Virus record (IMG/VR): IMGVR_UViG_3300025053_000005
Coordinates: 1-43,248 of that record
Strand: one strand, 5' to 3'
DNA: 43,248 nt
DNA from: a virus
Lineage: Duplodnaviria; Caudoviricetes
The notes under the pieces are model-generated. The model was not told where the DNA came from, did not search any database, and worked only from the letters and a program-made list of their open reading frames with translations. The stretch's first letter is position 1, and each line of letters opens with the position of its first letter. Below are positions 12,827-40,647 of this stretch, one piece after another. The translations under genes and the position numbers were made by a program.

Positions 12827-13115
12827 TCCGACCGAAGCGTGGACTTGCCCGAGGTGCTACCAGATGAATGTGCGCTCATTCTGCGTTCGCTGTCTGGCGC
12901 CACGTCCGCATGCGCAGGCATTCCAGCAGGTTAGCACGACTGGGAGGCGCGCGATGTCGCGCATGTTCGCCATAAACATCGGCGCCACCTTCGACTTCGA
13001 ATTCGGCAGCAGCCTGGAGGCGGTCGGGAAAAAGCGGATTTACTGGCAGGGAAATAATCCACTTCGGCAGCTTTTCGGCAGCGTGACTTTTAGATCGTTA
13101 TTCCATGCTGTATAA
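12801..13115 (+). CDS. Small protein with a RanBP2-like zinc-finger motif
   Basis: WTCPRCYQMN....CVRCLAPRP; the C-terminus runs into the attP arm. Confidence 0.3.
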   Translation: MSGVFQSGSPTEAWTCPRCYQMNVRSFCVRCLAPRPHAQAFQQVSTTGRRAMSRMFAINIGATFDFEFGSSLEAVGKKRIYWQGNNPLRQLFGSVTFRSLFHAV

Positions 13116-13116
13116 A

Positions 13117-13144
13117 GCGGGTTCGAATCCCGCCTTCTCCGCCA
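13117..13144 (+). other. attP core: tRNA 3' end (T-arm plus acceptor strand, likely tRNA-Ser)
   Basis: GCGGGTTCGAATCCCGCCTTCTCCGCCA with discriminator G; no 5' half of a tRNA upstream; lies downstream of int. Confidence 0.85.
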
Positions 13145-13151
13145 GTATATG

Positions 13152-13183
13152 CGCCATAACTATTTGATAGTTATGGCGTTTTT
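13152..13183 (+). terminator. Intrinsic terminator after the attP tRNA fragment
   Basis: 12-bp stem CGCCATAACTAT/ATAGTTATGGCG followed by a T-run. Confidence 0.7.
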
Positions 13184-13225
13184 ATTTAAAGCAATGTATA
13201 TGCCATGACGCAAAATAGGCGCTAA

Positions 13226-13954
13226 TTAGCCCTGTTTCGGCACGGGCTGCCGAGAGTAGATAGCCTCTTTTTTTGCTCGTAAGTAAGCCAAATGCGCGTC
13301 CATTTCTGAATCAAAATACCCAAAACTGACACTTCCAACCCTTGCTTGGTACCTTGTTTTAAACCTGCTCTTGGATGTTACCCTTACTCCGGTAAGGAGT
13401 TTTCCGGGCTTTTTTTCTTTTTTGATAATACTTTTCTTTTTTTTCTTTGGTATATACCCGTCAGATTTAGACATTGCGCCCATAATTCCAGCCGATATTT
13501 TCTCAAGTACCTCAACACCCCATCTGTTCATGGCTAAATTTACTGCCAGGCAAACAAGTCGAACGTTTGATTTAATGTAGCCAATGTTTGAGTCTATTCT
13601 GTCCAGACTTGGAGCAAACGGACGATGCGGTCCTCTCTGTGTTGGTGCCGCGAATTCAAAATGAATTCCAGATATTTCACACCGCCAGCGACTTCTGCGT
13701 ATTAGGTCAGACATGGCTAATTCATCGAATTCGAATTCCATGTTTTTTGATTTTGATCTTCGTTTTGCGTCTTGAAGTAGCGTTGTAGCCCATGCAGGCA
13801 GTTCTATCTGCGAAGATCCGCGTATGTGTCTATTAAAGCAGTCGGTGGAACAAAACTTACCAACACCTCTAGTGCGTTTTTCTGTGGTCTCAAACGTGCG
13901 GCAACAGAAATGGCATTCAGCGATTATTAGTGGTTTTAGTTTTTTCATTGCCAT
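13226..13954 (-). CDS. HNH-like endonuclease with an N-terminal Zn finger and a C-terminal AP2-like domain
   Basis: CHFC...FCSTDC; CEISGI.F...PSLDRIDSNIGY..SNVRLVC..VN; TGV....RYQARVG...GYFDSEMDAHLAY; AT-rich. Confidence 0.7.
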   Translation of the reverse strand: MAMKKLKPLIIAECHFCCRTFETTEKRTRGVGKFCSTDCFNRHIRGSSQIELPAWATTLLQDAKRRSKSKNMEFEFDELAMSDLIRRSRWRCEISGIHFEFAAPTQRGPHRPFAPSLDRIDSNIGYIKSNVRLVCLAVNLAMNRWGVEVLEKISAGIMGAMSKSDGYIPKKKKKSIIKKEKKPGKLLTGVRVTSKSRFKTRYQARVGSVSFGYFDSEMDAHLAYLRAKKEAIYSRQPVPKQG

Positions 13955-15116
13955 TTGTAAATTTCCTTGCGAACATTTCTACCGCTTTTCCACCCGCATT
14001 TGGCGTGGCTTCCGGTATCCAGCGCCCGTAAACCCTGAAAATCATTGCCGTATCGGAGTGGCCCATCTGCTGGGCCAGCCAGATTGGTGATTCTCCGGCG
14101 GTCAGCATCATGCTGGCGTAAGTGTGGCGGGTCTGGTATTGCCTGCGGTAGAGTACGCCGGCCGTTCTCAGCGCTGGCACCCAGGCGCCGTGCCGGATCG
14201 GCTGGTCGCCTGTCCAGGGCTGGCCTGTTCTCGGATTGAGAAAGACGGCACCGCCTGCCAGAAAGCTGTGGGCTTTTTGCGCTTTTAGTGCTTCCAGTGC
14301 CGGGGCGAGTATTTTAACGTCCCGCGTGCCTTTTCTGGTTTTTGTGCCTTCTGCTTCGTCTGCAGCCTGTGTCTTTGCGCGGCTGACCCGGACAATGCCC
14401 CGAATCCAGTCTATATCGCCCCATTCCAGCGCCGCCAGCTCCGAGGTGCGTAGCCCTGACCAAAAGGCGAACTGGAACAGGTTACGGTGCTGCGGATCGC
14501 GGCAGGCGTCGAGGATCAGTTCCTGGTCTGCAGCGGTGAACGGATCCACATCGTCTACCGGCTTCGGCGCTTCCTTGCGGGCGAACTTCCAGCCGTAGAG
14601 CGGATTGGTTTCGATCAGTTCATCGTCAAGCGCATCCTGCAGCGCGGCGCGCAGCACGCTTTGCACGTTGGCCAGGCGTTTGTTTCCTGCTTTCTGACCT
14701 TCGCACCAGGTACGGATGTCAGCGCGTTTTAGTTCGGACAGGTAGATTCTGCCCAGTGCCGGGATGAGTGTGTGGTTGACGATCTTTCGATAGTCGTCCC
14801 AGGTGCTGCTCTTGAGGTGCTGGCGCTGTCGTTCCAGCCAGGTCTCAAGCCATGTTTCCAGCGCGTAGCCTGCGCCTTTGCGTTCCGAGAACAGGAATCG
14901 GCGGGAGGATTCCGGGAAGGTGACGGCATAATCGAAGGTGCCGCGCTCGATGGCGTGCAGAATGGCGGCGCGGTGCTGCTCGGCGCGTTTTAGATTCGCA
15001 GGGGTGGGGGCGAGCTTGATGCGCTCGCGGCAGCGGATGCCCTTGAGTTCGAAGTCGATCTGGATGCTGCTTTCCGAGACGGCGCGCACGCCAGTCCGTT
15101 GCCGTTTTCCACCCAC
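13917..15116 (-). CDS. int: Phage tyrosine integrase
   Basis: GTG start with GAGGGG RBS; arm-binding N-terminus GVRAVSESSIQIDF; SGLRTSEL, TKT, YQTRHTYAS, MGH, VY motifs. Confidence 0.95.
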   Translation of the reverse strand: MGGKRQRTGVRAVSESSIQIDFELKGIRCRERIKLAPTPANLKRAEQHRAAILHAIERGTFDYAVTFPESSRRFLFSERKGAGYALETWLETWLERQRQHLKSSTWDDYRKIVNHTLIPALGRIYLSELKRADIRTWCEGQKAGNKRLANVQSVLRAALQDALDDELIETNPLYGWKFARKEAPKPVDDVDPFTAADQELILDACRDPQHRNLFQFAFWSGLRTSELAALEWGDIDWIRGIVRVSRAKTQAADEAEGTKTRKGTRDVKILAPALEALKAQKAHSFLAGGAVFLNPRTGQPWTGDQPIRHGAWVPALRTAGVLYRRQYQTRHTYASMMLTAGESPIWLAQQMGHSDTAMIFRVYGRWIPEATPNAGGKAVEMFARKFTNGNEKTKTTNNR

Positions 15117-15274
15117 TGGTGATACCCCTCGATGTCGATCAACACATGGCCATCCGGCGCCCGGCGCCAGACGCGGCCTTCCATCCACACGCCGTCGCGG
15201 ATTTTCCCGCGAATGGCGTGCTCAGTATAGCCACTCTCGGCGGCGAACTGAATGATGGTTTTATAGCGCAGCAT
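14990..15274 (-). CDS. xis: Excisionase
   Basis: [42 protein letters not shown]; overlaps the int start; its ATG overlaps the intI TGA. Confidence 0.85.
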   Translation of the reverse strand: MLRYKTIIQFAAESGYTEHAIRGKIRDGVWMEGRVWRRAPDGHVLIDIEGYHQWVENGNGLACAPSRKAASRSTSNSRASAAASASSSPPPLRI

Positions 15275-16296
15275 CAGCCGATCCGGTCCAGCGGGCTCAT
15301 CACCCCATGCGCGCCACGATTGAGCACATGGGTATAAATCATCGTCGTGCTCACGTCGGCATGGCCCAGCAGCTCCTGCACGGTGCGGATGTCGTAACCG
15401 GACTCCAGCAAGTGCGTGGCGAATGAGTGGCGCAGGCTGTGGGGGTGGACCAGCTTGCCTATCCCGGCAGCCTGCGCAGCGGCCCGGACGGCGCGCTGGA
15501 TGTTGCGCTCGTTCCAGTGGTGGCGACGGTATGCGCCTGATCGCGGGTCGGTGCTGTAGCCGGGCGCGCAGAACAGGTATTGCCAGGCCCATTCTGCCGC
15601 TGCGCGCGGGTATTTTCGCTCGATGGCATCCGGTAGTTCCACGTCGGCATGGCCGGTCGCCAGATCAATGTCGTGCAAACGTCGCCGTGCGACCAGATGG
15701 TCGCGCAATTCGTCGCCCAGGCTGGACGGCAGCATGGTGATGCGGCCCTTGTTTCCCTTGCCTTCGCGGATGGTGATCTGGCCGCGCTCGATGTCGAGAT
15801 CCTTGACGCGCAAGCGCAGGCACTCCAGTAGGCGCATGCCGGTTCCGTACAGCAGTTTGATGACCAGGCCGTTCGTGCCGCTGACGTGGCGCAGTAAGGC
15901 CTGTATTTCGCGCTGGGTGAGCACGACTGGGAGTCGCTTCGAGACTTTCGCGCGGGTGACGCCATCCAGCCATGGTAGATCGATGCCCAGTACGTCACGG
16001 TAGAGGAACAGGATGGCGTGCATGGCCTGGTTCTGGGTGCTGGCGCTGACGTTGCGCTCGGTGGCCAGATCAGATAGGAAGGCTTCCACCTCCGGCGCGC
16101 CCATGTCGGACGGGTGGCGTTTGTGGTGGTAGAGGATGAAGCGCTTGGCCCAGTGGGTGTAGCTCTGCTCGGTGCGCAGGCTATAGTGTTTTACACGGAG
16201 AACTGCGCGCATGCGGTCGAGTAATTTTGGCGGCTGGGCAGGCGTGTCGTGTAACACGGCGCTTGGTGTCGCGTTTTGTTTTTCGATAGTGAGCAT
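15274..16296 (-). CDS. intI: Integron integrase
   Basis: KLLDRMR...[56 protein letters not shown]. Integron-specific insert [12 protein letters not shown]...WAWQYLF...RRHH. GGAGG RBS. Confidence 0.97.
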
Positions 16297-16318
16297 TTTC
16301 GCGGTCCTCCGTGGTTTT

Positions 16319-16363
16319 GTTCGGAATTAGGCGTAAAAAAGTGACGGTCAATTCTAGTTCGGC
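16319..16363 (+). other. attI site, crossover G|TT at 16357/16358
   Basis: GTTCGGC at 16357 is the exact reverse complement of cassette 1 R'' GCCGAAC. No hairpin. Core-like GTTCGGA and ATTAGGC upstream; 60 bp from the intI start. Confidence 0.8.
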
Positions 16364-16587
16364 GTCACTTCATCGCCCAGTGGGAACGTCCCTTCTTCTG
16401 GGTACTCGCTCAGATAGGCCACATGCTCGTAGTGCGTGGCCGTGCCGTCGTCGTCCATCACACCGCTTGCCGGGCAGTTGATGATGGTCATTTCAGTTTC
16501 CAGTTCGTCGGTGTAGTCGTGCGGCGCAATCACCAGCCCAACGGCCTCGGCCAAGTCCTTAATCTCTTTTCCGGTCAGTGTCAGCAT
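16354..16587 (-). CDS. Cassette 1 ORF, 77-aa acidic hypothetical protein
   Basis: GGAGAAGGA RBS region; fills the cassette; stop TAG supplied by attI. Confidence 0.75.
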   Translation of the reverse strand: MLTLTGKEIKDLAEAVGLVIAPHDYTDELETEMTIINCPASGVMDDDGTATHYEHVAYLSEYPEEGTFPLGDEVTPN

Positions 16588-16616
16588 TTCAGTCCTTCTC
16601 CTATGGTTACAGCGCC

Positions 16617-16679
16617 GCCGAACCCGGCGCTCAAGCGGGACGCGCGAAAAGCCGCGCGCCCCTTAGCTATGCGTTATGC
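16617..16679 (+). other. attC 1
   Basis: R'' GCCGAAC, L'' GCTCAAG with extra C, stem CGCGCG/CGCGCG, L' CTTAGC, R' GTTATGC. Confidence 0.93.
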
Positions 16680-16910
16680 GTCAAGGTTGTACTTCTCATC
16701 CAGCAAGCGCCGCGACTGCTCGCAGACCTTGCCACCATCAAGCCGCACAGTGCATTGCGACACCTTCGCCCGTAGGCCGCCCCGCCACGCACCACGCACA
16801 AACGGCAGCCAGTCGGCGGCAGCTTTGCGCGACGGGTACGCATTACCAACCCTCGTCCAGCCTTTTGCCGGGTGCATCACCATCGTGAAAAACATGGTTC
16901 GCTTTTCCAT
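16674..16910 (-). CDS. Cassette 2 ORF, 78-aa basic hypothetical protein (MEKRTMFF...)
   Basis: GGAGA RBS before ATG 16910; TAA inside the core site at 16674-16676. Confidence 0.7.
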   Translation of the reverse strand: MEKRTMFFTMVMHPAKGWTRVGNAYPSRKAAADWLPFVRGAWRGGLRAKVSQCTVRLDGGKVCEQSRRLLDEKYNLDA

Positions 16911-16927
16911 TTCTCCGTCTCCGCGCC

Positions 16928-16990
16928 GCATAACCCGGCATTCAAGAGGGACGGTCCGCAAGCGGCCCGCCCCTTAGCTCTGCGTTAGGC
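16928..16990 (+). other. attC 2
   Basis: R'' GCATAAC (complements GTTATGC at 16673), ATTCAAG...CTTAGC, R' GTTAGGC. Confidence 0.93.
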
Positions 16991-16991
16991 G

Positions 16992-17186
16992 TCAAGATTC
17001 AACCGCTTCAGCGGCCTCAGTGTTGTACACCCGACGCCAGAATCGGCACTCTTCAATCCATCCTTCACTACCCCTTTCAGCCTCAAGTGTTTCTGCGCGA
17101 GCTTTCCAGTAAGACGCACTGCCGTGCGAAAAAGCCAACGCCGCAGCCAGTATTCCAAATCCTATTGCCAGTTGTTCTGGGTTCAT
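16992..17186 (-). CDS. Cassette 3 ORF, 64 aa with an N-terminal hydrophobic segment
   Basis: AAGGGA RBS; MNPEQLAIGFGILAAALAFS. Confidence 0.65.
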   Translation of the reverse strand: MNPEQLAIGFGILAAALAFSHGSASYWKARAETLEAERGSEGWIEECRFWRRVYNTEAAEAVES

Positions 17187-17210
17187 TTTGTTTCCCTTTC
17201 TTAGATTCAC

Positions 17211-17271
17211 GCCTAACAAGGCATTCAAGCTGGACTTCGTTTCACTCAGCCCCTTAATTCAGTCGTTCAGC
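17211..17271 (+). other. attC 3
   Basis: R'' GCCTAAC (complements GTTAGGC at 16984), ATTCAAG...CTTAAT, R' GTTCAGC. Confidence 0.9.
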
Positions 17272-17272
17272 G

Positions 17273-17767
17273 TCAAAGCCACACGCCCTCATTACGTCCA
17301 TCCGTCAAGAGCACCCGCCTGTTCTCGGCAAACTGATCTGAAATCCAGTCAGGTATTGCGCCGTCGAAAGCATCGCGCAGTTGTCCCACGGTGAAGCCAA
17401 CTACGCCGCCGCTCGGCGCTACCGCCATGTCAAATCCGGCGCGCAAACAGGCAGACAGCATGTCGCCGAATCGACCGCGCACGACTTCAACTCCGTGCCT
17501 GTTCTCTCGCTCGAACTCATAGCGGTTGTCCCAGAGGTAGGTGTCCACGCGCGAGCTTGCGGACTCGTAGTGCTCGTGCCAGCCCTTGCCGTACCGAACA
17601 CAACTGTCCCAGTCTTCGACGGTCTCCAAGCCGTTGCAGACAACCCAGTAAATGCAGCCCTCTACCTCTGCCAACAGCTTCTTCTTCCGCGCCGGAGTCA
17701 GGTCGGTAAAGCTGCGCGCCAGGCCGAGACTCATTTGCTTCCAGCGGTCGTGTTGCAGTTCGTTCAT
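17273..17767 (-). CDS. Cassette 4 ORF, 164-aa hypothetical protein
   Basis: AAAGGA RBS; fills the cassette. Confidence 0.8.
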   Translation of the reverse strand: MNELQHDRWKQMSLGLARSFTDLTPARKKKLLAEVEGCIYWVVCNGLETVEDWDSCVRYGKGWHEHYESASSRVDTYLWDNRYEFERENRHGVEVVRGRFGDMLSACLRAGFDMAVAPSGGVVGFTVGQLRDAFDGAIPDWISDQFAENRRVLLTDGRNEGVWL

Positions 17768-17788
17768 GTCATCGTCCTTTCAGTTGCC

Positions 17789-17855
17789 GCCGAACAATTC
17801 GTCCAACCGGACGTGCCGATAAAGCCCGGCACGCCGGTTAACTCAATCGTTAGCC
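17789..17855 (+). other. attC 4
   Basis: R'' GCCGAAC (one mismatch to GTTCAGC at 17265), GTCCAACCGG...CCGGTTAAC, R' GTTAGCC. Confidence 0.92.
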
Positions 17856-18067
17856 ACCATCCGCGCTGCATACACTCTCAGGCAGCGTTTACAGGCATTT
17901 GCCAGCGGCAAGTTAATCGTCATCCGGTAGCCTTCTGGTGCTGGTCTGCCGCAAATCGGGTCGCTGATGTATCCAGCCTTAATCAAATGCTGATCGTCCC
18001 GACCTTCTCCAGCCTCGTAGGCAAGGTGCAATTTCTGCCCGCCCTTAACTTGTGCATAAATCATCAT
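17843..18067 (-). CDS. Cassette 5 ORF, 74-aa putative Zn-binding protein
   Basis: GGAGG RBS; H...C...CKRC pattern; its stop lies in attC 4. Confidence 0.7.
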   Translation of the reverse strand: MMIYAQVKGGQKLHLAYEAGEGRDDQHLIKAGYISDPICGRPAPEGYRMTINLPLANACKRCLRVYAARMVAND

Positions 18068-18077
18068 TTCCTCCAGT

Positions 18078-18164
18078 GGCTAACATTACGTTCAACCTTC
18101 GCTCCCTTTGGTCGCCTGACCTGCCGCAAAAGGCGCGGCAGTCAGGGTTAACTCTACGTTATGC
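18078..18164 (+). other. attC 5
   Basis: R'' GGCTAAC (complements GTTAGCC at 17849), GTTCAACC...GGTTAAC, R' GTTATGC; longer branched central region. Confidence 0.9.
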
Positions 18165-18332
18165 CCCTACGTCCGGCGGCTTGATCTTGTGCCGACGTTT
18201 CAGGGCTTCCTCAATCAGCACGGCCCGGCTCTCCGGCTGTTCGTCCATCCACGCCAGCAGCCAGCGCGGAAGCTTCAGGCTCACCGGCACCTTAACAAGT
18301 GCCGGCGGCTTTTTAGGCGCACCGGCAACCAT
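18159..18332 (-). CDS. Cassette 6 ORF B, 57-aa ribbon-helix-helix/CopG-like protein
   Basis: MVAGAPKKPPALVKVPVSLKLPRWLLAWMDEQPESRAVLIEEALKRRHKIKPPDVGA; ATG overlaps the ORF A stop (TAATG); not in the ORF track. Confidence 0.7.
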   Translation of the reverse strand: MVAGAPKKPPALVKVPVSLKLPRWLLAWMDEQPESRAVLIEEALKRRHKIKPPDVGA

Positions 18333-18541
18333 TACGAATTAAACCCGGCCAACTGCCCAACGGTAGGCGCCTGCACCATCGAAACATCAACCCACTGAAT
18401 CCGTTGATTAGGGTTTTTGTCCTCAATTGTTGCATCGATCACGCCAACCTCACGCACACCCAACTCCTGTACGCGGTACATGGTCGCGTCAACTTCATGG
18501 TTCATAACAACTAAATCAAATACTGCTGGCAGCTTTTTCAT
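18332..18541 (-). CDS. Cassette 6 ORF A, 69-aa hypothetical protein
   Basis: GAGGTG RBS; downstream of the cassette promoter. Confidence 0.7.
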   Translation of the reverse strand: MKKLPAVFDLVVMNHEVDATMYRVQELGVREVGVIDATIEDKNPNQRIQWVDVSMVQAPTVGQLAGFNS

Positions 18542-18580
18542 GATCTACACCTCTCGCAATTTGGTTCAGGCCAATCCTTC

Positions 18581-18631
18581 ACCATAATTACAGTATATAC
18601 CTTATTTCAATTAAAGTCAATACCATAATTA
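18581..18631 (-). promoter_or_regulatory. Sigma70 promoter in cassette 6 with flanking direct repeats
   Basis: Minus strand TTGACT (18620-18615), 17 bp, TATACT (18597-18592); ACCATAATTA at 18581 and 18622. Confidence 0.8.
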
Positions 18632-19281
18632 TCGGGGCATAACCCGGCGCTCAACTCGAACTGCGCGAAGAGGCCGCGCAGTCGGTTAGCTCTACGTTCG
18701 GCGATTTCCTTGGGGTAGTTGTGGACGGTGTTTCTTGCCATCAGTTGGCTGCGGCTGATTAATTCCAGATTGCCGATGTCGCAGTTGTGCCGGTTGCCGT
18801 CCTTGAAAACCAGGGCCATGCCGCGAGGCGGGTATTCGCCATGAGCCAGTTTCCAGTTCCAGCGGTGGAGCGGAACCCACGCTCTGGCGCCCGGAGATGT
18901 CTTGATGTCGATATAGCCTTCCGAGTTGACGCGCAGGCTGCCGACTTCGCGCCGGTTGGGTGGGGTAGTGCCGGGCTTGAAGCGGGTTTCGTGCGATCTG
19001 CCACCGGAGTCCCATGACAAGCCCTTGTTCCAGGGCGTCATGCCGGGCTGAAAGCGGGTTTTCTCGCCGCGCTTGCCGTCGGTGCGGCCTGCTGCTGGGC
19101 TGGACATATAGGCTGGCGACTTGCGCAGGCCCATCGCTTTGGCTTTGCTGATGACCTGTTTTTCACGCAGGCCCATGGAGGATGCCAGCCGGGCGGTATG
19201 CTCAACAGGAAAGCGGCGCTGCAGTTCTGCTGTGTCGGATGCCGTCCAGGTGTGGCGGTTCATTTTAGCTTTCATCTTCAC
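18607..19281 (-). CDS. Phage HNH endonuclease-like protein; last ~30 aa read through attC 6
   Basis: TRFQPG..PWNKG repeats; HRWNW...HG..P..M.LVFKDGN..NCDI.NLELISR..LM.RN.VHNYP. Confidence 0.75.
   Translation of the reverse strand: MKMKAKMNRHTWTASDTAELQRRFPVEHTARLASSMGLREKQVISKAKAMGLRKSPAYMSSPAAGRTDGKRGEKTRFQPGMTPWNKGLSWDSGGRSHETRFKPGTTPPNRREVGSLRVNSEGYIDIKTSPGARAWVPLHRWNWKLAHGEYPPRGMALVFKDGNRHNCDIGNLELISRSQLMARNTVHNYPKEIAERRANRLRGLFAQFELSAGLCPDNYGIDFN
18637..18702 (+). other. attC 6
   Basis: GGGGCATAAC complements GTTATGCCCC at 18158 over 10 bp; GCTCAAC...CTGCGCG/CGCGCAG...GTTAGC; R' GTTCGGC. Confidence 0.92.
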
Positions 19282-19760
19282 GCCATCTCCACATTATTCA
19301 ATGTGCCGTCCATACCCGGCTCGGCATAAACCACCCCTGCCTCCCGCATCTTTTCATTCACCCACAACACGTAAGCGCGGGCCTGCTCCAGCCGGTGTTG
19401 CGGGCTGGTAGTGAAGTAATTGGCGATGGCCGGCATGGTTTCGCGCAGCGTCACCAGCTCCGGGCCGCTGGCGCCGTATTGGCCGGTCTTGTCGTGGCGG
19501 CGGCGGATGCCGATGTAGGCGGCGATGGCGGCATCGCAGATGGACAGCATTTCCGCGTGGCGCGTGTCCACCGCGATCTTGTGGCAGACGTTGAGCAGGT
19601 AGGCGACGGTGTTGCTGTCTATGGCGTCAAACGTGGCGCTGGCCAGCTTGTCGGTGAAAAAGAAGCCCATGATATCGATGGGGACGCGAATCTCTGGCGC
19701 CAGCCAGGTCTGGAGCGGGCGGGGCCGGTATTTGCGGCGCGGTTTTTTGGTGGTGGCCAT
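19278..19760 (-). CDS. Hypothetical early protein
   Basis: 160 aa, basic N-terminus KKPRRKYRPR; coupled to the HNH gene. Confidence 0.7.
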   Translation of the reverse strand: MATTKKPRRKYRPRPLQTWLAPEIRVPIDIMGFFFTDKLASATFDAIDSNTVAYLLNVCHKIAVDTRHAEMLSICDAAIAAYIGIRRRHDKTGQYGASGPELVTLRETMPAIANYFTTSPQHRLEQARAYVLWVNEKMREAGVVYAEPGMDGTLNNVEMA

Positions 19761-19886
19761 TTCCGTCCTTAGAAATAGGTCTGCATCCGGACGCAGACTT
19801 TCGCCAGCATCCTGCGCTGATCAAGTGTTGCCGTGGCGCGCAAATCTCTGGTGATAAGCCTCGCGCCAACTGCTTTTGATTGGGTT

Positions 19887-20192
19887 TCAGTTAAGCAGTC
19901 GTTCATGAAATCCGGCTCGTCCGTCATCCAGCGCGGCAGAAATAAGCTCAGTATTGAATATCGGCTCACCACTTAACACCTCCATTACCTTCGTGAATAG
20001 CATCTGACGCAGTTCTTTGGACATGTCCGTGAAATCTATGCAGTGAAGTGCGCTCATTGCCGCTTCATCTTTTGCGCTCATGCGCCCGCCAGTGATGACC
20101 ATCGCGTGTCGCACTTCGCAAATGCTGAACCGCCGTCCTTCAAACATCTTCTTGATCCCGAGGATCGCGGCCTGTTTATGGAATTCATCCAT
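19887..20192 (-). CDS. Hypothetical protein (MDEFHKQAA...)
   Basis: ATG overlaps the upstream TGA. Confidence 0.55.
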   Translation of the reverse strand: MDEFHKQAAILGIKKMFEGRRFSICEVRHAMVITGGRMSAKDEAAMSALHCIDFTDMSKELRQMLFTKVMEVLSGEPIFNTELISAALDDGRAGFHERLLN

Positions 20193-20413
20193 CACGCGGC
20201 CCTCCGCCAGCCTTGCATGGCCGCTATGATGTTGCGCATGGCCATGTCGGGCGTCATCACGATATTGGGGTTGGTGATTATCCCGCGCCAGGCGCGTGCG
20301 CCGCATAGCCTGGAACAGGTTTGGCGATTGCTCCATTCAGATGGCGGTTCTTTTGGCCGGCGCACCAGCGCGATGCCGCAACATTTGCAGGTTTTATCGG
20401 TCGTGTCTGACAT
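20192..20413 (-). CDS. Small Zn-finger protein
   Basis: CKCCG...TCSRLC. Confidence 0.6.
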   Translation of the reverse strand: MSDTTDKTCKCCGIALVRRPKEPPSEWSNRQTCSRLCGARAWRGIITNPNIVMTPDMAMRNIIAAMQGWRRAA

Positions 20414-20579
20414 TTGTCTGTCCTTCCGCTTGTTCGATGTGCTTGCGGGCCACGTCGATGGCGATGACCGAGGCCGGGTAGTCCGATTTGTCGATGGCGT
20501 AAATGGCTTTCTCCAGCCATTCGATGGCCATGAATGCGTGCTGTATCTCGCTGGCGCGATGGTCGGTTAGCGCGGCCAT
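20394..20579 (-). CDS. Hypothetical early protein
   Basis: MAALTDHRASE...; part of the tightly packed leftward operon. Confidence 0.5.
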   Translation of the reverse strand: MAALTDHRASEIQHAFMAIEWLEKAIYAIDKSDYPASVIAIDVARKHIEQAEGQTNVRHDR

Positions 20580-20658
20580 GATTCGCCCGCCTTGATCCAT
20601 GCCAGGCGCCAGGTGTAGCCCAGGGCGCGATAGAAGCGCAGGGCAAAGATCAGCCGCT

Positions 20659-20895
20659 TCATGATGCGCGCCTCGATTTATAGTCGAGACAATGCGCCAC
20701 GCTGTTGAGCGGAATCAGCTTGCCGCGACACTTGAGGTCGCCTTCCTCCGTCTGCGTGGGCTTGACGCACTCGGCGCAGGCGAAGGGCTGGAACAGGCGC
20801 GGGTGGGCCTTCATCGCTTCCTTGTGGATGGCGTCGATGGCGGCGGGGTCGCCCTGGGCGGCGATCAGGCGGCTGTGGAATGGTTCTGGAATCAT
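20659..20895 (-). CDS. Hypothetical Cys-containing protein
   Basis: 78 aa, CAEC...C...C; overlapping start and stop. Confidence 0.55.
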   Translation of the reverse strand: MIPEPFHSRLIAAQGDPAAIDAIHKEAMKAHPRLFQPFACAECVKPTQTEEGDLKCRGKLIPLNSVAHCLDYKSRRAS

Positions 20896-21095
20896 GCCGC
20901 GTCTCCCGCAAAGGCGCCGGGGGTGGAGAGCCAGCTTTCCCGGTCGGTCTGTTCGTAGGGGTCGAGCAGGCCTTTGAAGTCTGCCGGGCGCACCAGTCGT
21001 GCGCCGTGGCGCGAGATGGTCAGCAGCAGGCCTGTGGCTGCCTGCAGCTCGGCGGTTTGCTGGGGCGTGTGGACGCCGATGACGGGGATGTTCAT
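20892..21095 (-). CDS. Hypothetical early protein
   Basis: 67 aa; GGAGG RBS, ATGA coupling. Confidence 0.6.
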   Translation of the reverse strand: MNIPVIGVHTPQQTAELQAATGLLLTISRHGARLVRPADFKGLLDPYEQTDRESWLSTPGAFAGDAA

Positions 21096-21340
21096 GCGGC
21101 CTCCTGCTGTGGAATCAGATCGTCACCCGACCGGGCGGCACTCTTTGCCATCTGGATCAGGCAATCGGCCAGGCGGATGGCCTCGGCAGGGTGGAGGTGC
21201 AGGCCGAAATCGCCGGTGAACACGGTGCCGATCTGGATGCAGACTTTCGCATCCCGTGTTTTGCCATCCGCATCCCGGCTAGCCGTAAGGTGGCCGACAT
21301 AAACCATCGTCCCGCTTTCCAAAATCGTGCTCATGCTCAT
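21092..21340 (-). CDS. Hypothetical early protein
   Basis: 82 aa ending QQEAA, which carries the RBS for the next gene. Confidence 0.6.
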   Translation of the reverse strand: MSMSTILESGTMVYVGHLTASRDADGKTRDAKVCIQIGTVFTGDFGLHLHPAEAIRLADCLIQMAKSAARSGDDLIPQQEAA

Positions 21341-21370
21341 TTCCGCTCTCCTTTTAATTGTCTGGTGCCG

Positions 21371-21808
21371 TTACCCGCAAGATTTCCAGATTATTCTTGC
21401 CTTTATCCTTCTAATCGTTTCTTTTGAAACATGGTATTCATCGGCTATTACTTTGTTAATTCTTGCGTCAATGCGTATCAATTTGACTTGATCGCAATTT
21501 AATTTAATTCCTACTCCAGCCAGTTGTGGGAGCCGCCATCTATTCCTATTTTTACTGACCATATCTTTGTTATTTTCGGATACAGTTCCAGCAAATAGAT
21601 GGGAAGGATTTACACACTTCCTGTTGTCGCACTTGTGGCAGATAACTGATCCGTCAGGAATCATTCCGTGCGCTAATTCATACGAAAACCTGTGAGCAGA
21701 AACGCGCTTTCCTTTAAAGTAAAACTGGCCGTAACCAGTACTTCTAATTGATGCGGACCATTCCCAACATCCTTCAGACTTAATTACTTTCTTCCAGAAG
21801 CGTTCCAT
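21371..21808 (-). CDS. HNH homing endonuclease
   Basis: RFWKKV...CWEW...GYG...AHRFSY...[20 protein letters not shown]; AT-rich. Confidence 0.9.
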
Positions 21809-21900
21809 GGTGATTCCTTATTTACAGGTCAGTTATCAAGGAATCCTTGACAACTCAGCTACCGGCCCGGCTGTACCGGGCGTTTTTGATGCGATGGGTA

Positions 21901-21942
21901 AGTATAGCCATACTAAACAACCAATGTCAAGCAGCACTAAAC
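21901..21942 (-). promoter_or_regulatory. Leftward early promoter PL with two operators
   Basis: Minus strand TTGACA (21930-21925), 18 bp, TATACT (21906-21901); operators GTATAGCCATACTAAAC (21902) and GTCAAGCAGCACTAAAC (21926). Confidence 0.8.
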
Positions 21943-21990
21943 TATTTAATTATTTTGTGGCAAAATAAATGCACTCGCGGAATCGCGGGC

Positions 21991-22016
21991 AACAAAAAAC
22001 CCGCAGAAGCGGGTTT
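21991..22016 (-). terminator. Terminator of the repressor operon
   Basis: AAACCCGC-AGAA-GCGGGTTT with a T-run on the minus strand. Confidence 0.7.
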
Positions 22017-22036
22017 GTAGTGGCTGTTTTATTGTT

Positions 22037-22357
22037 TTATTCCCGGCGGTCTTTCATTTTGGCGTCGTAAACGGCCTGCCACTGCATGTTGCTCGGCGCG
22101 TCAAGTCCACAGCGCTTGAGCGCGACGATATGGTCGATCACGTAGCCCGGGCATGGTCCGCGACGTAACCCGTTTGACGGACAGGGATTAGTTTGCTTGA
22201 ATTCGTTCCGTGAAGCGGCGCTGCGCTTTATTTTTCCGTTCGCGTCGCGTTCACAGCACGAGCACTGCGATCCATGCGCAGGGAAGGATAGCGTGACCAG
22301 CAGGAATAAGATCAGCCTATATGACTGATCCGCAAGAGTGGCAGACAGATTTTTCAT
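22037..22357 (-). CDS. Signal-peptide-bearing HNH-like protein
   Basis: Hydrophobic LILFLLVTLSFPAHG; RD..G.IKRS....F...NPCP.......CPGYVIDHIVALK..G.D.PSNMQWQ. Confidence 0.7.
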   Translation of the reverse strand: MKNLSATLADQSYRLILFLLVTLSFPAHGSQCSCCERDANGKIKRSAASRNEFKQTNPCPSNGLRRGPCPGYVIDHIVALKRCGLDAPSNMQWQAVYDAKMKDRRE

Positions 22358-22685
22358 TGTTATTCATCGATCCGCAACGGATGCATTTCTTCTGCTGGTT
22401 GGCGTCCACCTGTTCTCCGGTCAGTTTGCATCCGCAATGCTTGCAAACTCGCGCGTCTTTCATTATAAGTTCTTTGCAATCAGGGCATCGTACGTGCGTT
22501 TCTGGTGTCGGCGATGCGTCTACTGGCTGCGTGATCCTTGATTGGACTACCAGGGCAAAAATAATACCAATCAGCGGTGAAAGCAGAACGGAAAGCAGGA
22601 AGAAACCGAATCCAGACCGGCCTTTATTGGATGCAATAATCCCGGCGATGATGCTGAAAATCATCCAGAATACAAATATTTCCAT
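22317..22685 (-). CDS. Membrane protein with zinc ribbons (lysogenic accessory)
   Basis: Two TM segments around KGRSG.G.F.LS..LSP; CPDC..CKHC..CIRC..CHSC. Confidence 0.8.
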   Translation of the reverse strand: MEIFVFWMIFSIIAGIIASNKGRSGFGFFLLSVLLSPLIGIIFALVVQSRITQPVDASPTPETHVRCPDCKELIMKDARVCKHCGCKLTGEQVDANQQKKCIRCGSMNNNEKSVCHSCGSVI

Positions 22686-22757: not shown

Positions 22758-23150
22758 TTATTGTGTCTCGCTGCGCTGCTGAAAACTTAGATTCTTTGAT
22801 GCCTCGCGCGCCATGTTAAGCATCGCGTCCCTTATCTGCGGAACGGCTGCCCTGTAACCGAGCAGCAGTTCAACTTCATCGTTTGGCGGGGGTTCCGTTA
22901 TTTTGAACTGGCTCTTTAGTGGCTCCTTGAGCGCGCTTGAATAATCGTTCTTACCCAAGATCAGCCAATCCAGCGAGAACTTGAATTCTTGCTGTAGTTT
23001 AAGCAGGCGCGGTGTCGGTGGAATAAGTTCATCATTCTCCCATTGCGAAACCATTGCTTTCGTGACCTCGCATATCTCCCCAAAGCTCGATTGTGAGAGC
23101 TTGTGTTCTTTCCTGATGCTCAATAAACGTTTGCCAATAGTCATCTGCAT
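22758..23150 (-). CDS. CI-like XRE repressor without a peptidase domain
   Basis: IGKRL..IRK...LSQ..FG....VTKAMVSQWE...SLDWLILG; divergent from cro. Confidence 0.85.
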   Translation of the reverse strand: MQMTIGKRLLSIRKEHKLSQSSFGEICEVTKAMVSQWENDELIPPTPRLLKLQQEFKFSLDWLILGKNDYSSALKEPLKSQFKITEPPPNDEVELLLGYRAAVPQIRDAMLNMAREASKNLSFQQRSETQ

Positions 23151-23153
23151 ATT

Positions 23154-23219
23154 GTATAGCCCAACTAAATCGCCGTGGTTTAGTGGTGCTTGACATTCAA
23201 TGTTTAGCATGGTTAAACT
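23154..23219 (+). promoter_or_regulatory. OR region: three 17-bp operators and PR
   Basis: Operators at 23154, 23178 and 23202 (24-bp spacing; GTWTAG-N5-CTAAAC-like); TTGACA (23190), 18 bp, TAAACT (23214). Confidence 0.8.
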
Positions 23220-23226
23220 ATGCCTC

Positions 23227-23451
23227 ATGAAGATAAATCAAATAGCGGGATTGGCTGGTGGCGTTGTTGCGCTATCGACCGCGCTCGGCCTCAGCAGGGG
23301 TGCCGTGTCGCAATGGGACAAGGTTCCCGTCGATAAAGTGCTGAGGGTTTGCGACCTCACAAGCTGGCAAGTCACCCCCCACGAACTGCGCCCCGACATC
23401 TACCCCAACCCATCCGACGGCCTGCCCGTCGATCACCAGGAGGCGGCTTAA
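23227..23451 (+). CDS. Cro-like (YdaS-type) regulator
   Basis: AGG...LS..LGLSRGAVSQW..VP...VTPHELRPDIYP. Confidence 0.85.
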   Translation: MKINQIAGLAGGVVALSTALGLSRGAVSQWDKVPVDKVLRVCDLTSWQVTPHELRPDIYPNPSDGLPVDHQEAA

Positions 23452-26760: not shown

Positions 26761-26998
26761 AGTTACGCGGGTTACGCCACGGTTACGCGGTAGTTACGCC
26801 TGAGACCCGCGCCGTTACGCGGGTTACGCGAAAACGGGCCTTTCAACTCTCCCATGCGTGTGCGCGTAGCACATTCCATGCCACCCACACATGCGCGCGC
26901 ATTCGTGAAAGTGTGAATCCGCGTTTCCTGCGTAACCCACGTAACTATGCGGGTCTCAGGCGTAACTACCGCGTAACCGTGGCGTAACCCGCGTAACT
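26761..26998. repeat. Long inverted repeat built of GTTACG units; candidate replication origin
   Basis: 26761-26810 is the exact reverse complement of 26949-26998; imperfect arms extend to about 76 bp; immediately after the helicase. Confidence 0.75.
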
Positions 26999-32451: not shown

Positions 32452-32718
32452 ATGTGCGACCTGTTAAGCCGAATCATAGAAATCGTCCAGCAACTCCAGC
32501 CCAGCCTGAGCGACGAAATGGCACTGGAGATCGAGCGCAGCCTGCGCGCGGAGTTTGCCGGGGAACAGGTTTACATCTACAAGCGCGTGGCCGAGCGCGA
32601 CAAGATGCGGATTGAAGTCCGGCGCCGCTTCAACGGGCGCAACGCTACCGAGATCGCGCGCGAGCTGGGGATCGGCAGGACAACGGTTTACCGGATTCTG
32701 AAGACAAGTGGAAAGTGA
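32452..32718 (+). CDS. Mor-like transcription activator
   Basis: FAGEQVYI.K....RD.....FNGRN..EIARELGI.R.TVYRIL. Confidence 0.8.
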   Translation: MCDLLSRIIEIVQQLQPSLSDEMALEIERSLRAEFAGEQVYIYKRVAERDKMRIEVRRRFNGRNATEIARELGIGRTTVYRILKTSGK

Positions 32719-32764
32719 AATCGTCCCACTTTTCCTAAATTTGGAACAGTCGCCCCTGTAGCCT
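32715..32764 (+). promoter_or_regulatory. Late promoter, copy 1
   Basis: 35-bp element (33/35 identical to 40598-40632), then TAGCCT 9 bp later. Confidence 0.65.
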
Positions 32765-34918: not shown

Positions 34919-36658
34919 ATGGCATACGAAGACATCGCGGCAGACGTAACAATCGACAACGTAACCAAGGTCATCGACTACGTTGGTAATGCCCACGGCG
35001 CGGCTGGCGCGGGGTACTACACAGGTATCTATTTGCATCGCTGGCTAGGCAGCTTGGCAGATGATGCGCAAGCCTCGACAGGCTCTGGCGACTACATGGA
35101 CATGACCAAGCTCACGCCATCGAGTCGAAACGGTATTGACCAGATTATCCAGATGCTCAACGGCTACACGCTGACTGTGACCTTGATCGAGCACTTGTAC
35201 GACTGCTCGATCATCATGAACGGTGGCGACGACATCTACGATGGTTTCACACTGATCACGGCAGAAGGCTGCGACATGCAGATCGTGCAGAATGGCGCGA
35301 TCGTCGTCAATGACTTCTGGAACACGATTCCGAGCGGTCAAACTACCAAGGGATTGAACCGCGACCTGACGAAAGGTATCGCTGCTCGCTTCCTGCTCAA
35401 GGTGCGCAGCGCCGGTGTAGACATCGACTTGCGCCGGGTGCTAGGTCAGACCCGCGTGTATGGATACACCAACTCAGAGTTCTTGGTCAACGGCTCCGCT
35501 CGTGGCAATAACGTGATCGCGTTGAACTATGCGGCGGACAACAACAACTTGACAGCTGCCGGCACGGTCGCGACCTGGACGGACATCACCCTGACGACAG
35601 AAGGCTACAACGCCATCGACGTAGATGCCAACGCTGTCAATGAGTACTACTACAGCAAGTGGAATGTCAACAAGCCTACACGCACAATCAATAACTTCTA
35701 TGAGCGCATCAAGTATCTCCAGCGCCAAGGCTCGGCAGAAACCTTGTACGGCTTGAATGGTGAACTGTTCCGTGGCGTGACCCACCAGATCGCTTACAGC
35801 ACGTTGACAGGTTTATTCGACGACAGCAACCCAGTGACGTTCTCTAACGGCGCAACGGCGCAGATTCTGGCCGACGATGGATCGGGCGTCATGTGGGTAC
35901 AGCTGCTGACCGGATCACCCCCTGTTGCCACCAATACCATTTCACAGACGGTGCCGGACGCTGCATCGGCCACCATCACCACAATGACTGCGCGCCCACT
36001 GAGCTATCCGGCTTGCGGACAATCGACCGGCTCTGCTCTGCTGGGTGCCTATGGCTTCGGCATTGAGACGGACGACCTGACCAGTAATGACAAGCTTATT
36101 GCTCTGGATGGCGTCGAGCGCACCCCGCCAAACAACCAGACGTTCTACGTCAATGGTGTGGTCAGCACAGAAGACTACGTGTTAGTTGGCCTGAAAAATG
36201 GCGGTGGCACAGACATCGATGCAGGGCAGTTCCTGCTGAATACCACTTTGGTTGGTGCGGACGCTTCGGTCGTTGTCAAGGTTGGCACAGAGACTCCAGG
36301 CACCGGCACGCAGAGTGCGACAGATACCCCGTCTACAGGCACGATTCGCGTTGAGGGTGATGATGGGGTGTACCACCGCGTCGCCTATACCGGGATTACG
36401 ATTGGCGCATCGACAATGACCTTTACTGGCTGTACGGGCGCACCTGCGGCGACAGCGAACAACGACGTGTACATCAGCTACATCGACAAACTGGCGGACG
36501 CTACCACGCTGTCCTACCAAGCCACCTACCACTCATCACGCAACCTGTTCGCTCGGGTACGGGATGGTAAGACGACCCCGATCAAGACTTTCGAGGGTAC
36601 AGGCACATTCGGCTCTGCCGGTGGTTCTATCTCTGTGTCCCGCCAGACTGACGAGTAA
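34919..36658 (+). CDS. Large hypothetical protein, likely virion-associated
   Basis: 579 aa, Thr/Gly/Asp-rich, in the late operon. Confidence 0.75.
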   Translation: MAYEDIAADVTIDNVTKVIDYVGNAHGAAGAGYYTGIYLHRWLGSLADDAQASTGSGDYMDMTKLTPSSRNGIDQIIQMLNGYTLTVTLIEHLYDCSIIMNGGDDIYDGFTLITAEGCDMQIVQNGAIVVNDFWNTIPSGQTTKGLNRDLTKGIAARFLLKVRSAGVDIDLRRVLGQTRVYGYTNSEFLVNGSARGNNVIALNYAADNNNLTAAGTVATWTDITLTTEGYNAIDVDANAVNEYYYSKWNVNKPTRTINNFYERIKYLQRQGSAETLYGLNGELFRGVTHQIAYSTLTGLFDDSNPVTFSNGATAQILADDGSGVMWVQLLTGSPPVATNTISQTVPDAASATITTMTARPLSYPACGQSTGSALLGAYGFGIETDDLTSNDKLIALDGVERTPPNNQTFYVNGVVSTEDYVLVGLKNGGGTDIDAGQFLLNTTLVGADASVVVKVGTETPGTGTQSATDTPSTGTIRVEGDDGVYHRVAYTGITIGASTMTFTGCTGAPAATANNDVYISYIDKLADATTLSYQATYHSSRNLFARVRDGKTTPIKTFEGTGTFGSAGGSISVSRQTDE

Positions 36659-36660
36659 GC

Positions 36661-37038
36661 ATGTTCTACGTTCTAACGCTAGGCGATGCGGTAATGGTGA
36701 CGGAATCAAACCCGTACTCATTGCCGCTCGCGCTTTGGTCTATCCACGAAGTTGACGGGACTATCCCTGATCTGAATACTCATGCGTGGGATTTCCAGAG
36801 CGATGGGTTCGTAAAGTTCGGCGGGAATCTATCCCGCGTGGATTTTATCTTGCGCTTCACCGCCTCCGAGTGGGAAGCGGCGGCCACGTCATCCGACATC
36901 AACATCAAGCAGGGCATGGCATTGATTCTCGCCGCTGAATACATCGACGTAGCAGATATGCGCACCATGATGCTGGTCGGCTATTGCGCCATGATCGGAC
37001 TGATCCTTGATTCCCGCGTGGCGGAGATACTGGCATGA
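36661..37038 (+). CDS. Hypothetical protein resembling fibre-associated chaperones
   Basis: LSRVDFILRFT..E...AAEYIDV.D...GLI...R.AEILA. Confidence 0.6.
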   Translation: MFYVLTLGDAVMVTESNPYSLPLALWSIHEVDGTIPDLNTHAWDFQSDGFVKFGGNLSRVDFILRFTASEWEAAATSSDINIKQGMALILAAEYIDVADMRTMMLVGYCAMIGLILDSRVAEILA

Positions 37039-38897: not shown

Positions 38898-39121
38898 TGG
38901 CCTACGACTCTGAATACGATGGCCGGATGATCGCTGCCACTCGCAATATCGAGGGGTTGTTCGTGGCGGTAAACCATTTCGAGCAGAAAAGAGCGGACGA
39001 TGCCGCACGGGTAGAATCCATGATCGCCACGATCACCCAGCTTACCCAGCAGGTCGTCGCCCTTAATCAAGCCGTGGCCCTGCTTAAAGCGCAATCGTTG
39101 TACTGCGGGGTGACTGAGTGA
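38897..39121 (+). CDS. Small coiled-coil protein
   Basis: ITQLTQQVVALNQAVALL heptads. Confidence 0.6.
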   Translation: MAYDSEYDGRMIAATRNIEGLFVAVNHFEQKRADDAARVESMIATITQLTQQVVALNQAVALLKAQSLYCGVTE

Positions 39122-40398: not shown

Positions 40399-40601
40399 TG
40401 AGCATCAACGCCCGCGCCATCGCCACGCTGGGGATTGGCTTTGGCGCGCTGGCCATATCCTCCATCGGCTTCAATGCAGGCGACATCCTCATCCCGCCGC
40501 CCATCGCCCCACGCCGCAGCTCAGGCAGGCTGATGAGCACGCATTCTCTACCGCGCGGCCCACGAGAGGATGAAGATGCGCTGCTTTTACTGCTGTTGTG
40601 A
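40398..40601 (+). CDS. Small hypothetical protein
   Basis: TAATG coupling; ends EDEDALLLLLL. Confidence 0.55.
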   Translation: MSINARAIATLGIGFGALAISSIGFNAGDILIPPPIAPRRSSGRLMSTHSLPRGPREDEDALLLLLL

Positions 40602-40647
40602 AATTGTCCCACTTTTCCTAAGTTTGGAACAGCCTTATCAGTAGCCT
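40598..40647 (+). promoter_or_regulatory. Late promoter, copy 2
   Basis: Second copy of the 35-bp element plus TAGCCT, upstream of the protease-capsid gene. Confidence 0.65.

What the first reader, a model, noticed from the sequence alone, without database searches (positions are those of the whole stretch)
15274..18702. Complete integron (intI, attI, six attC cassettes) built into a temperate phage genome
Seen: an intact IntI with its family-specific insert and all catalytic residues, an attI crossover at 16357, and six attC sites of differing sequence (61-87 bp). Each cassette's R'' complements the G|TT core at its own start (five exact, one with a single mismatch), the expected scar of circle insertion. 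Known: integrons are mainly described on chromosomes, plasmids and transposons. Inference: this phage uses an integron to acquire and shuffle accessory early genes. No transposon or IS ends flank it.
Basis: partly seen in the sequence, partly recalled or inferred. Interest (0 to 1): 0.95.

Follow-up and report, generated by a model that had tools for sequence, protein, structure and literature searches.

The report
Phage-adapted integron with backward-facing cassettes
A complete temperate phage carries a whole integron (a gene-capture device known from bacteria) whose six cassette genes face backwards, so that the phage's own early promoter would likely read them, and near-identical related phages differ by whole cassettes, which likely makes it a phage-adapted tool for gaining and losing accessory genes.

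Summary
Confirmed. A circular 43-kb lambda-like phage carries an intact IntI (TIGR02249, 460 bits), attI at G16357|TT and six attC sites. A model built from 48 chromosomal attC sites finds all six at 32-64 bits; the next hit scores 12. This IntI falls in a clade of 39 viral sequences plus prophage-like host copies, with none of 75 chromosomal controls. In that clade 55 of 63 distinct cassettes are backward, against 6 of 93 in controls. Phages with identical intI genes differ by whole cassettes at exact G|TT boundaries, so gain and loss are supported; reordering was not seen. Relatives' cassettes carry methylases, Mom, Lar, Tad1-like and Acb4-family genes. This phage's own cargo has no known function. 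Phage-borne integrons are published (Qi 2023) as captured host or class 1 integrons; eight paper searches found no phage-adapted, backward-coded lineage. This scan noted the same system earlier on other DNA (e1-5359259). IntI activity and transcription are untested. New variant of a known kind.

The parts
15274..16296 (-). intI, integron integrase, 340 aa; its stop codon overlaps the xis start codon
16297..16363 (+). compact attI, crossover G16357|TT, about 60 bp from the intI start; supplies the stop codon of cassette-1 ORF
16358..16673 (.). cassette 1: attC 16617-16679(+); ORF 16354-16587(-), 77 aa, no family hit; 84% homologue in phage locus L140
16674..16984 (.). cassette 2: attC 16928-16990(+); ORF 16674-16910(-), 78 aa, no family hit
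16985..17265 (.). cassette 3: attC 17211-17271(+); ORF 16992-17186(-), 64 aa, no family hit
17266..17849 (.). cassette 4: attC 17789-17855(+); ORF 17273-17767(-), 164 aa; 43 homologues, the named ones all hypothetical; found with other neighbours in run X4
17850..18158 (.). cassette 5: attC 18078-18164(+); ORF 17843-18067(-), 74 aa; a 78% homologue in L141 is a plain phage gene with no attC detected
18159..18696 (.). cassette 6: attC 18637-18702(+); two coupled ORFs 18332-18541(-) and 18159-18332(-); the second looks like a ribbon-helix-helix protein (recalled, no family hit)
18592..18620 (-). sigma70-like promoter inside cassette 6 (10 of 12 consensus)
18607..19281 (-). HNH gene whose 3' end lies on the distal crossover G18696; its C-terminus departs from the family there
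14990..15274 (-). xis (excisionase)
   Evidence: phrog_9668, E 1e-23
13917..15116 (-). phage integrase with arm-binding domain
13113..13145 (+). attP core: 3' end of a tRNA, matched by short contigs of other organisms
   Evidence: no whole tRNA found
21901..21930 (-). PL-like leftward promoter (11 of 12); shares a 42-nt inverted repeat with the rightward promoter at 23190-23219
22758..23228 (-). cI-like repressor

Best explanation
This is a complete integron built into the leftward early operon of a temperate phage, with its cassette genes coded backwards relative to attC, so that the phage's early transcript would likely express them and then intI, xis and int; the phage IntI likely inserts and removes whole cassettes at attI and attC. 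Shown: the parts; the orientation; a phage- and prophage-restricted IntI clade with a conserved compact attI; whole-cassette differences between phages with identical intI. Inferred: PL is repressed by cI in lysogeny, so IntI would be made on induction or infection. Recombination would use the ordinary folded attC bottom strand. New cassettes enter at attI, which here is the promoter-distal end, so the bacterial rule 'first position is strongest' would not apply. The cargo pool is phage early genes, including DNA-modification and anti-defence genes, traded among co-resident phages.
For: IntI and attC tests. All seven ORFs are on the minus strand, and six have a purine-rich RBS; the seventh is coupled to its neighbour. 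The gene run from 21808 to 13917 is all minus strand with gaps of at most 126 nt. A PL-like promoter exists, and no + strand promoter was found in intI or attI. Clade: 39 of 39 viral, FastTree support 0.999, 0 of 75 genome controls; 51 rows at SH-aLRT 93 after adding host loci and named proteins. A second tyrosine recombinase lies within 6 kb after intI in 26 of 34 clade loci against 1 of 61 controls. Four of 5 host copies have a phage integrase next to intI. Orientation: 55 of 63 distinct clade cassettes backward, against 6 of 93 controls; 9 of 9 in host copies, one a near tie. L040 and L043 have identical intI and 99.9% identical distal flank over 7.2 kb but carry 6 versus 1 unrelated cassettes. 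L019 has an extra cassette at attI in front of L018's. L021 and L022 differ by whole cassettes. Run X4 shows a related phage with a different first cassette after the same G|TT. Methylase, Mom, PAPS-reductase or Lar hits: 13 of 75 clade cassette ORFs against 0 of 75 controls. Tad1 match E 6e-17 and Acb4 match E 9e-6.
Against: No transcription data and no recombination assay. No excised circle or rearranged joint in the contigs that span this array (contigs drop rare variants). No reordering of shared cassettes. Three minus-strand terminator-like hairpins lie between PL and the array (21739-21724, 19798-19779, 19682-19666), and no antiterminator was identified, so read-through from PL is not assured. 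The cassette-6 promoter could drive the downstream genes instead. None of this phage's seven cassette ORFs has a family hit. The cassette differences could be made by a host IntI in trans. The genome controls are the best 80 from 4 of 64 parts of the collection.
Confidence: 0.8

Rival explanations
1. The platform is phage-borne, but the phage IntI is mostly dispensable: host chromosomal IntIs do the cassette exchange in trans, and phage intI is kept only in some lineages.
For: Phage attC sites fit a model of betaproteobacterial chromosomal attC. A cassette-1 homologue sits in a phage locus with attC sites and no intI within 4 kb (L140). Phage attC sites are recombined by IntI1 (Qi 2023). Earlier scan notes report intI-less backward arrays (unchecked).
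Against: IntI is open and full length in 39 clade members spanning 65-90% identity, and each carries a clade-specific attI, which points to selection on the pair. IntIs prefer their own attI (recalled).
Confidence: 0.12
2. A host integron was captured once by imprecise excision or recombination and is now an inert passenger.
For: Qi 2023 describes such captures (Vibrio, Shewanella, P1). This phage's array shows no variants in its source contigs.
Against: Host arrays have forward ORFs (82 of 93) and different cargo. Arrays differ between phages with identical intI. The clade holds no ordinary chromosomal control. intI is translationally coupled to xis.
Confidence: 0.04
3. The array differences come from homologous recombination between similar attC hairpins (a phage mosaic 'linker' mechanism) rather than from IntI.
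For: Some attC pairs are about 80% alike over 77 nt, and phages recombine readily at short homologies (recalled).
Against: Boundaries fall at G|TT, including at attI, which has no hairpin homology. Each cassette keeps its own R''/core pair. A cassette copy in L040 is inserted at a non-GTT site far from the array, ending at the crossover G.
Confidence: 0.04

Closest known systems
[quoted passage not shown] 2023, PMC9892861; main text and supplement part 1 of 2 read)
   Same: Complete intI-attI-attC integrons in temperate phages; phage cassettes carrying DNA methyltransferases; phage attC sites recombined by IntI1.
   Different: Their 3 complete integrons in 10,705 genomes are a slice of a Vibrio chromosomal integron, class 1 integrons on P1, and a Shewanella-type integron in a cryptic prophage. 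Their IntIs are 43-56% identical to this one. The text describes no phage-restricted IntI clade, no placement in the early operon and no backward ORFs. Figures and the Dryad annotation file were not seen.
Sedentary chromosomal integrons of Betaproteobacteria (Rhodocyclales, Nitrosomonadales)
   Same: IntI family and insert; attC sequence and structure; intI divergent from attC; R''/core rule.
   Different: Cassette ORFs are forward in 82 of 93 controls and backward here. No Pc-like promoter was found. attI is compact, 60-85 bp from the intI start. A phage integrase follows intI. Cargo is phage-type.
Inverted-integrase integrons (Treponema type; Cury et al. 2016, PMC4889954, passages read)
   Same: intI and cassette genes end up on the same strand.
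   Different: There intI is flipped to the attC strand. Here intI and attC keep the normal opposite orientation, and the ORFs inside the cassettes are flipped.
attG secondary-site insertion (Loot et al., bioRxiv 10.1101/2022.09.11.507474, abstract and outline read)
   Same: IntI can insert cassettes outside att sites. This would explain the distal boundary inside the HNH gene and the stray cassette in L040.
   Different: Shown for host genomes, not for founding or trimming an array in a phage operon. Its role here is inference.

Membership tests
Integron (complete) | IntI-family tyrosine recombinase with the IntI-specific insertion and catalytic residues | tested here: met
   TIGR02249 460.5 bits, cutoff 265; alignment to 2A3V; residues located
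Integron (complete) | attC sites with R''-L''-L'-R' boxes and a covarying hairpin | tested here: met
   6 of 6 found by a chromosomal-attC model. Covariation 0.53 against 0.14 in shuffles, on 125 distinct viral and window sites (alignment fitted to the model). IntegronFinder itself was not available.
Integron (complete) | attI next to the 5' end of intI with crossover at G|TT | tested here: met
   Conserved block ends at G|TT across the clade, with variable sequence after it
Integron (complete) | IntI catalyses attI x attC and attC x attC recombination | not testable with these tools
   Only indirect: whole-cassette differences between phages with identical intI
Canonical (class 1-type and chromosomal) integron layout | Cassette ORFs on the attC top strand, read from a Pc in intI or attI | tested here: not met
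   All 7 ORFs are antisense; no + strand sigma70-like promoter in 13000-22500 (weak test)
Canonical (class 1-type and chromosomal) integron layout | LexA box controlling intI | tested here: inconclusive
   Ad hoc motif: 0 of 33 clade versus 7 of 61 controls; 0 of 31 versus 10 of 60. Controls score too low for a firm test.
Inverted-integrase integron (Treponema type) | intI on the same strand as attC | tested here: not met
   intI is on the minus strand and attC on the plus strand
Mobile integron (class 1-5 on transposons or plasmids) | Carried by a transposon or plasmid; IntI near-identical to a numbered class | tested here: not met
   No transposase among 58 ORFs; IntI1 is 56% identical
Temperate lambda-like phage | Terminase, portal, capsid, tail, lysis, repressor, int/xis and attP in one circular genome | tested here: met

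The most novel reading that the evidence does not exclude
Temperate phages of Betaproteobacteria run their own integron economy. A phage-adapted IntI lineage packages phage early genes, including anti-defence and DNA-modification genes, as backward cassettes that would be silent in host integrons and live only in phage operons. New cassettes may be born when IntI recombines at secondary GTT sites in the 3' ends of phage genes; the cut HNH gene at the end of this array would be such an intermediate. That would make cassette genesis, a long-open question, testable in a small genome.
Probability: 0.3. Interest if true: 0.95.

Novelty: new variant of a known kind. Interest (0 to 1): 0.85.

Why it matters
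Integrons are seen as host devices and, lately, as stores of anti-phage defences. Here phages appear to have domesticated the same recombination system, rewired its expression, and stocked it with genes that include counter-defence families. It offers a site-specific mechanism for the mosaic early regions of temperate phages. It marks a place to mine new anti-defence genes, since most cassette ORFs have no family. It also gives a compact system for studying how cassettes arise and why they are oriented as they are.

Tried and rejected
Rfam and ARAGORN on the window: nothing. Pfam, PHROGs and NCBIfam on the window's seven cassette ORFs: no hits. ESM Atlas for the cassette-4 ORF: best score 0.75, not a lead. 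Viral-contig scan for the cassette-4 ORF: no locus. Sequencing runs: no RNA holder listed. No joints showing excision in the runs laid (X1-X4, X6, X7). The X3 joint from 18115 to 16963 at depth 2.4 lies inside two attC hairpins and was set aside as probably another organism's attC. Free-energy z-scores of single attC strands discriminate poorly. The first longest-ORF orientation rule gave 56 backward of 81 clade intervals and was misled by antisense shadow frames; it was replaced by one rule for both strands using coverage, RBS and ATG. Both results are reported. The LexA test was inconclusive. No clade-level IntI (E <= 1e-145) in 301 genomes sampled from the family of G001. Rctr41k, a GenBank phage with a 46% IntI-like gene, has no attC within 5 kb. 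Chimeric assembly was rejected. Joining the empty attI to the HNH gene in silico does not give the family's C-terminus, so the HNH end is unlikely to be the native right half of attI. The Treponema-type reading was rejected.
Full report
The window. It is a circularly permuted, complete phage genome of 43.2 kb with a 126-nt terminal repeat. It encodes terminase, portal, capsid, tail, endolysin, primase, a cI-like repressor, xis and an arm-binding integrase. A tRNA 3' end at 13113-13145 is matched by short contigs of other organisms and is the likely attP core. Divergent sigma70-like promoters lie at 21930-21901(-) and 23190-23219(+) and share a 42-nt inverted repeat. All genes from 21808 down to 13917 are on the minus strand, with gaps of at most 126 nt.

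IntI (15274-16296, minus) scores 460.5 bits on TIGR02249 against a cutoff of 265 and aligns with VchIntI4 over the family insert. Six attC sites of 61-87 bp lie on the plus strand. A covariance model built from 48 chromosomal attC sites finds all six at 31.9-63.6 bits; the next match in the window is 12.4. Those training sites were first found with a model of the window's own sites, so the test is only partly independent. Each R'' matches its cassette's core in 5 of 6 cases (permutation 4/720), but 71 of 92 chromosomal junctions do the same, so this is normal cassette anatomy. Two runs that may be the source hold one 42,941-nt contig spanning the region at flat depth with no differences. A third study's run holds identical pieces of cassettes 2 to 6.

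attI, attC and intI have the normal relative orientation, but all seven cassette ORFs are on the minus strand, antisense to attC and in line with the early operon. Six have a purine-rich RBS just inside R''; the seventh is coupled to its neighbour. Stop codons lie within 9 nt of the crossover, and two ORFs take their stop from the neighbouring site. The intI stop overlaps the xis start. No plus-strand promoter was found in intI or attI; cassette 6 has its own minus-strand promoter.

A phage-restricted IntI clade. The viral scan gave 59 loci and the genome scan 80 control loci, the best from 4 of 64 parts of the collection. After dropping 10 viral and 5 genome rows that were partial or had stops, a tree of 125 IntIs put the window and 38 viral loci in one clade (support 0.999) with 0 of 75 controls. 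Whole-genome searches found close IntIs in 5 of 301, 0 of 301 and 1 of 201 genomes from three betaproteobacterial families. Five of these six joined the clade (51 rows, SH-aLRT 93), as did seven database proteins, among them ones named from Sulfuricella, Thiobacillus and Aromatoleum. Four of the five host copies have a phage integrase beside intI. One complete chromosome reads repressor, early genes, array, intI, int, host genes (80 of 118 called ORFs scanned). The fifth, G152, has host genes directly beyond intI. A second tyrosine recombinase lies within 6 kb downstream in 26 of 34 clade loci and 1 of 61 controls, and ORFs distal to the arrays run with intI 58 times against 12. The clade shares a compact attI 60 or 85 bp from the intI start.

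Backward cassettes are the rule. With one rule for both strands, 68 of 81 clade intervals are backward (10 forward, 3 ties) against 6 of 95 controls (83 forward, 6 ties). After dereplication the counts are 55 of 63 and 6 of 93. Fisher's p is about 1e-27, but relatives are not independent. A cruder longest-ORF rule gave 56 of 81 and 7 of 95. Host copies gave 9 of 9, one nearly tied. Viral IntIs outside the clade gave 12 of 13, so the layout may have arisen more than once.

Cassettes come and go. L040 and L043 have identical intI genes and a 99.9% identical distal flank over 7.2 kb, yet carry six and one unrelated cassettes between the same two G|TT boundaries. L019 has an extra cassette at attI in front of L018's. 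L021 and L022 share six cassettes in the same order and differ by two and four whole cassettes (L022 appears to carry small frameshift errors). In run X4 a relative with about 91% identical intI has a different first cassette after the same crossover, carries cassette 4 beside other neighbours, and has three contigs that begin exactly at G18696. A 99.8% identical cassette sits in the L038 array and, with its attC, at a non-GTT site in L040. Gain, loss and exchange are therefore supported. Reordering was not seen, and no excised circle was seen for this phage.

Cargo. The window's seven ORFs have no Pfam, PHROGs or NCBIfam hit. Of 75 clade cassette ORFs (chosen from 90, dropping duplicates and doubtful calls), 28 hit PHROGs and 13 are methylases, Mom, PAPS reductases or Lar. 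Of 75 controls (from 94), 14 hit PHROGs and none is of those kinds (Pfam). One cassette matches Tad1 (E 6e-17) and one Acb4 (E 9e-6). A 78% homologue of the cassette-5 ORF is a plain phage gene without attC.

The distal end. The last crossover lies inside the HNH gene. Seven of 12 relatives end in a conserved helix that the window's protein loses exactly at G18696. The simplest reading, an inference, is IntI recombination at a secondary site, as described for attG sites (bioRxiv 10.1101/2022.09.11.507474, abstract), either when the platform arrived or in a later deletion.

Mechanism. Shown: parts, orientation, clade, whole-cassette differences. Inferred: cI holds PL off in lysogeny. On induction or infection the leftward transcript reads the cassettes and then intI-xis-int, so IntI appears when phage DNA replicates and other phage genomes may be present. 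If the origin lies near the primase, a leftward fork would put attC bottom strands on the lagging-strand template, which favours recombination (PMC5371416, passages read); the origin is not located. New cassettes enter at the promoter-distal end. Against simple read-through stand three terminator-like hairpins between PL and the array and the cassette-6 promoter.

Prior art. Qi et al. 2023 (PMC9892861; parts 1-4 of 7, covering the main text, and supplement part 1 of 2) found 3 complete integrons, one In0 and 17 CALINs in 10,705 phage genomes. The complete ones are host-type or class 1. Figures and the Dryad file were not seen and could show backward ORFs in some CALINs. Cury 2016 (passages) describes inverted integrases, a different layout. 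Passages of PMC13323075, PMC13366799, 10.1101/2024.07.02.601719 and 10.1101/2023.11.21.568050 did not describe this system. Eight full-text searches found no report of a phage-adapted, backward-coded integron lineage; subscription papers are mostly not covered. After my reading was recorded, the scan's notes showed the same system on other DNA (e1-5359259) and several intI-less backward arrays. These are not counted as evidence.

Verdict. A real, complete integron, and a new variant of a known kind: phage-adapted and backward-coded. Confidence in the mechanism 0.8, interest 0.85.

Noticed in passing
L040:14080-15131: A 99.8% copy of the L038 array cassette, with its attC, inserted away from the array on the opposite strand at a non-GTT site; looks like a secondary-site (attG-type) insertion.
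   Followed up: partly
window 34919-40601: Six ORFs (579, 125, 620, 74, 426, 67 aa) between portal and capsid with no Pfam or PHROGs hit and no NCBIfam hit above cutoff; the Atlas gives only weak leads for the first.
   Followed up: partly
window 32715-32764 and 40598-40647: 50-nt direct repeat (84%) in front of two late gene blocks, the first right after a Mor-like activator gene; possibly late promoters.
   Followed up: no
window 26761-26998: 69-nt inverted repeat (94%) with a 100-nt spacer just after the primase-helicase genes; possible origin or mobile hairpin.
   Followed up: no
L029:11606-12655: A second cluster of three attC sites downstream of intI, with backward ORFs.
   Followed up: no
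L046, L032, L033, L037, L056: Viral loci with IntI outside the clade (L056 too partial for the tree) also carry backward cassettes, 12 of 13 intervals; L046's IntI nests among Gallionella and Thiobacillus chromosomal IntIs, suggesting independent origins.
   Followed up: partly
L018:9587-9949 and L019:9248-9586: The same cassette protein gets a different C-terminal tail depending on whether attI or an attC follows it.
   Followed up: no
L117:1882-2599 and L102:8140-8438: A few backward ORFs occur in chromosomal control arrays; they may be phage-type cassettes taken up by hosts.
   Followed up: no
L140: Phage locus with a cassette-1 homologue whose attC is apparently broken, and further attC sites nearby, with no intI within 4 kb.
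   Followed up: partly
window 13226-13954 and 21371-21808: Two further free-standing HNH-type endonuclease genes, in AT-rich stretches.
   Followed up: no
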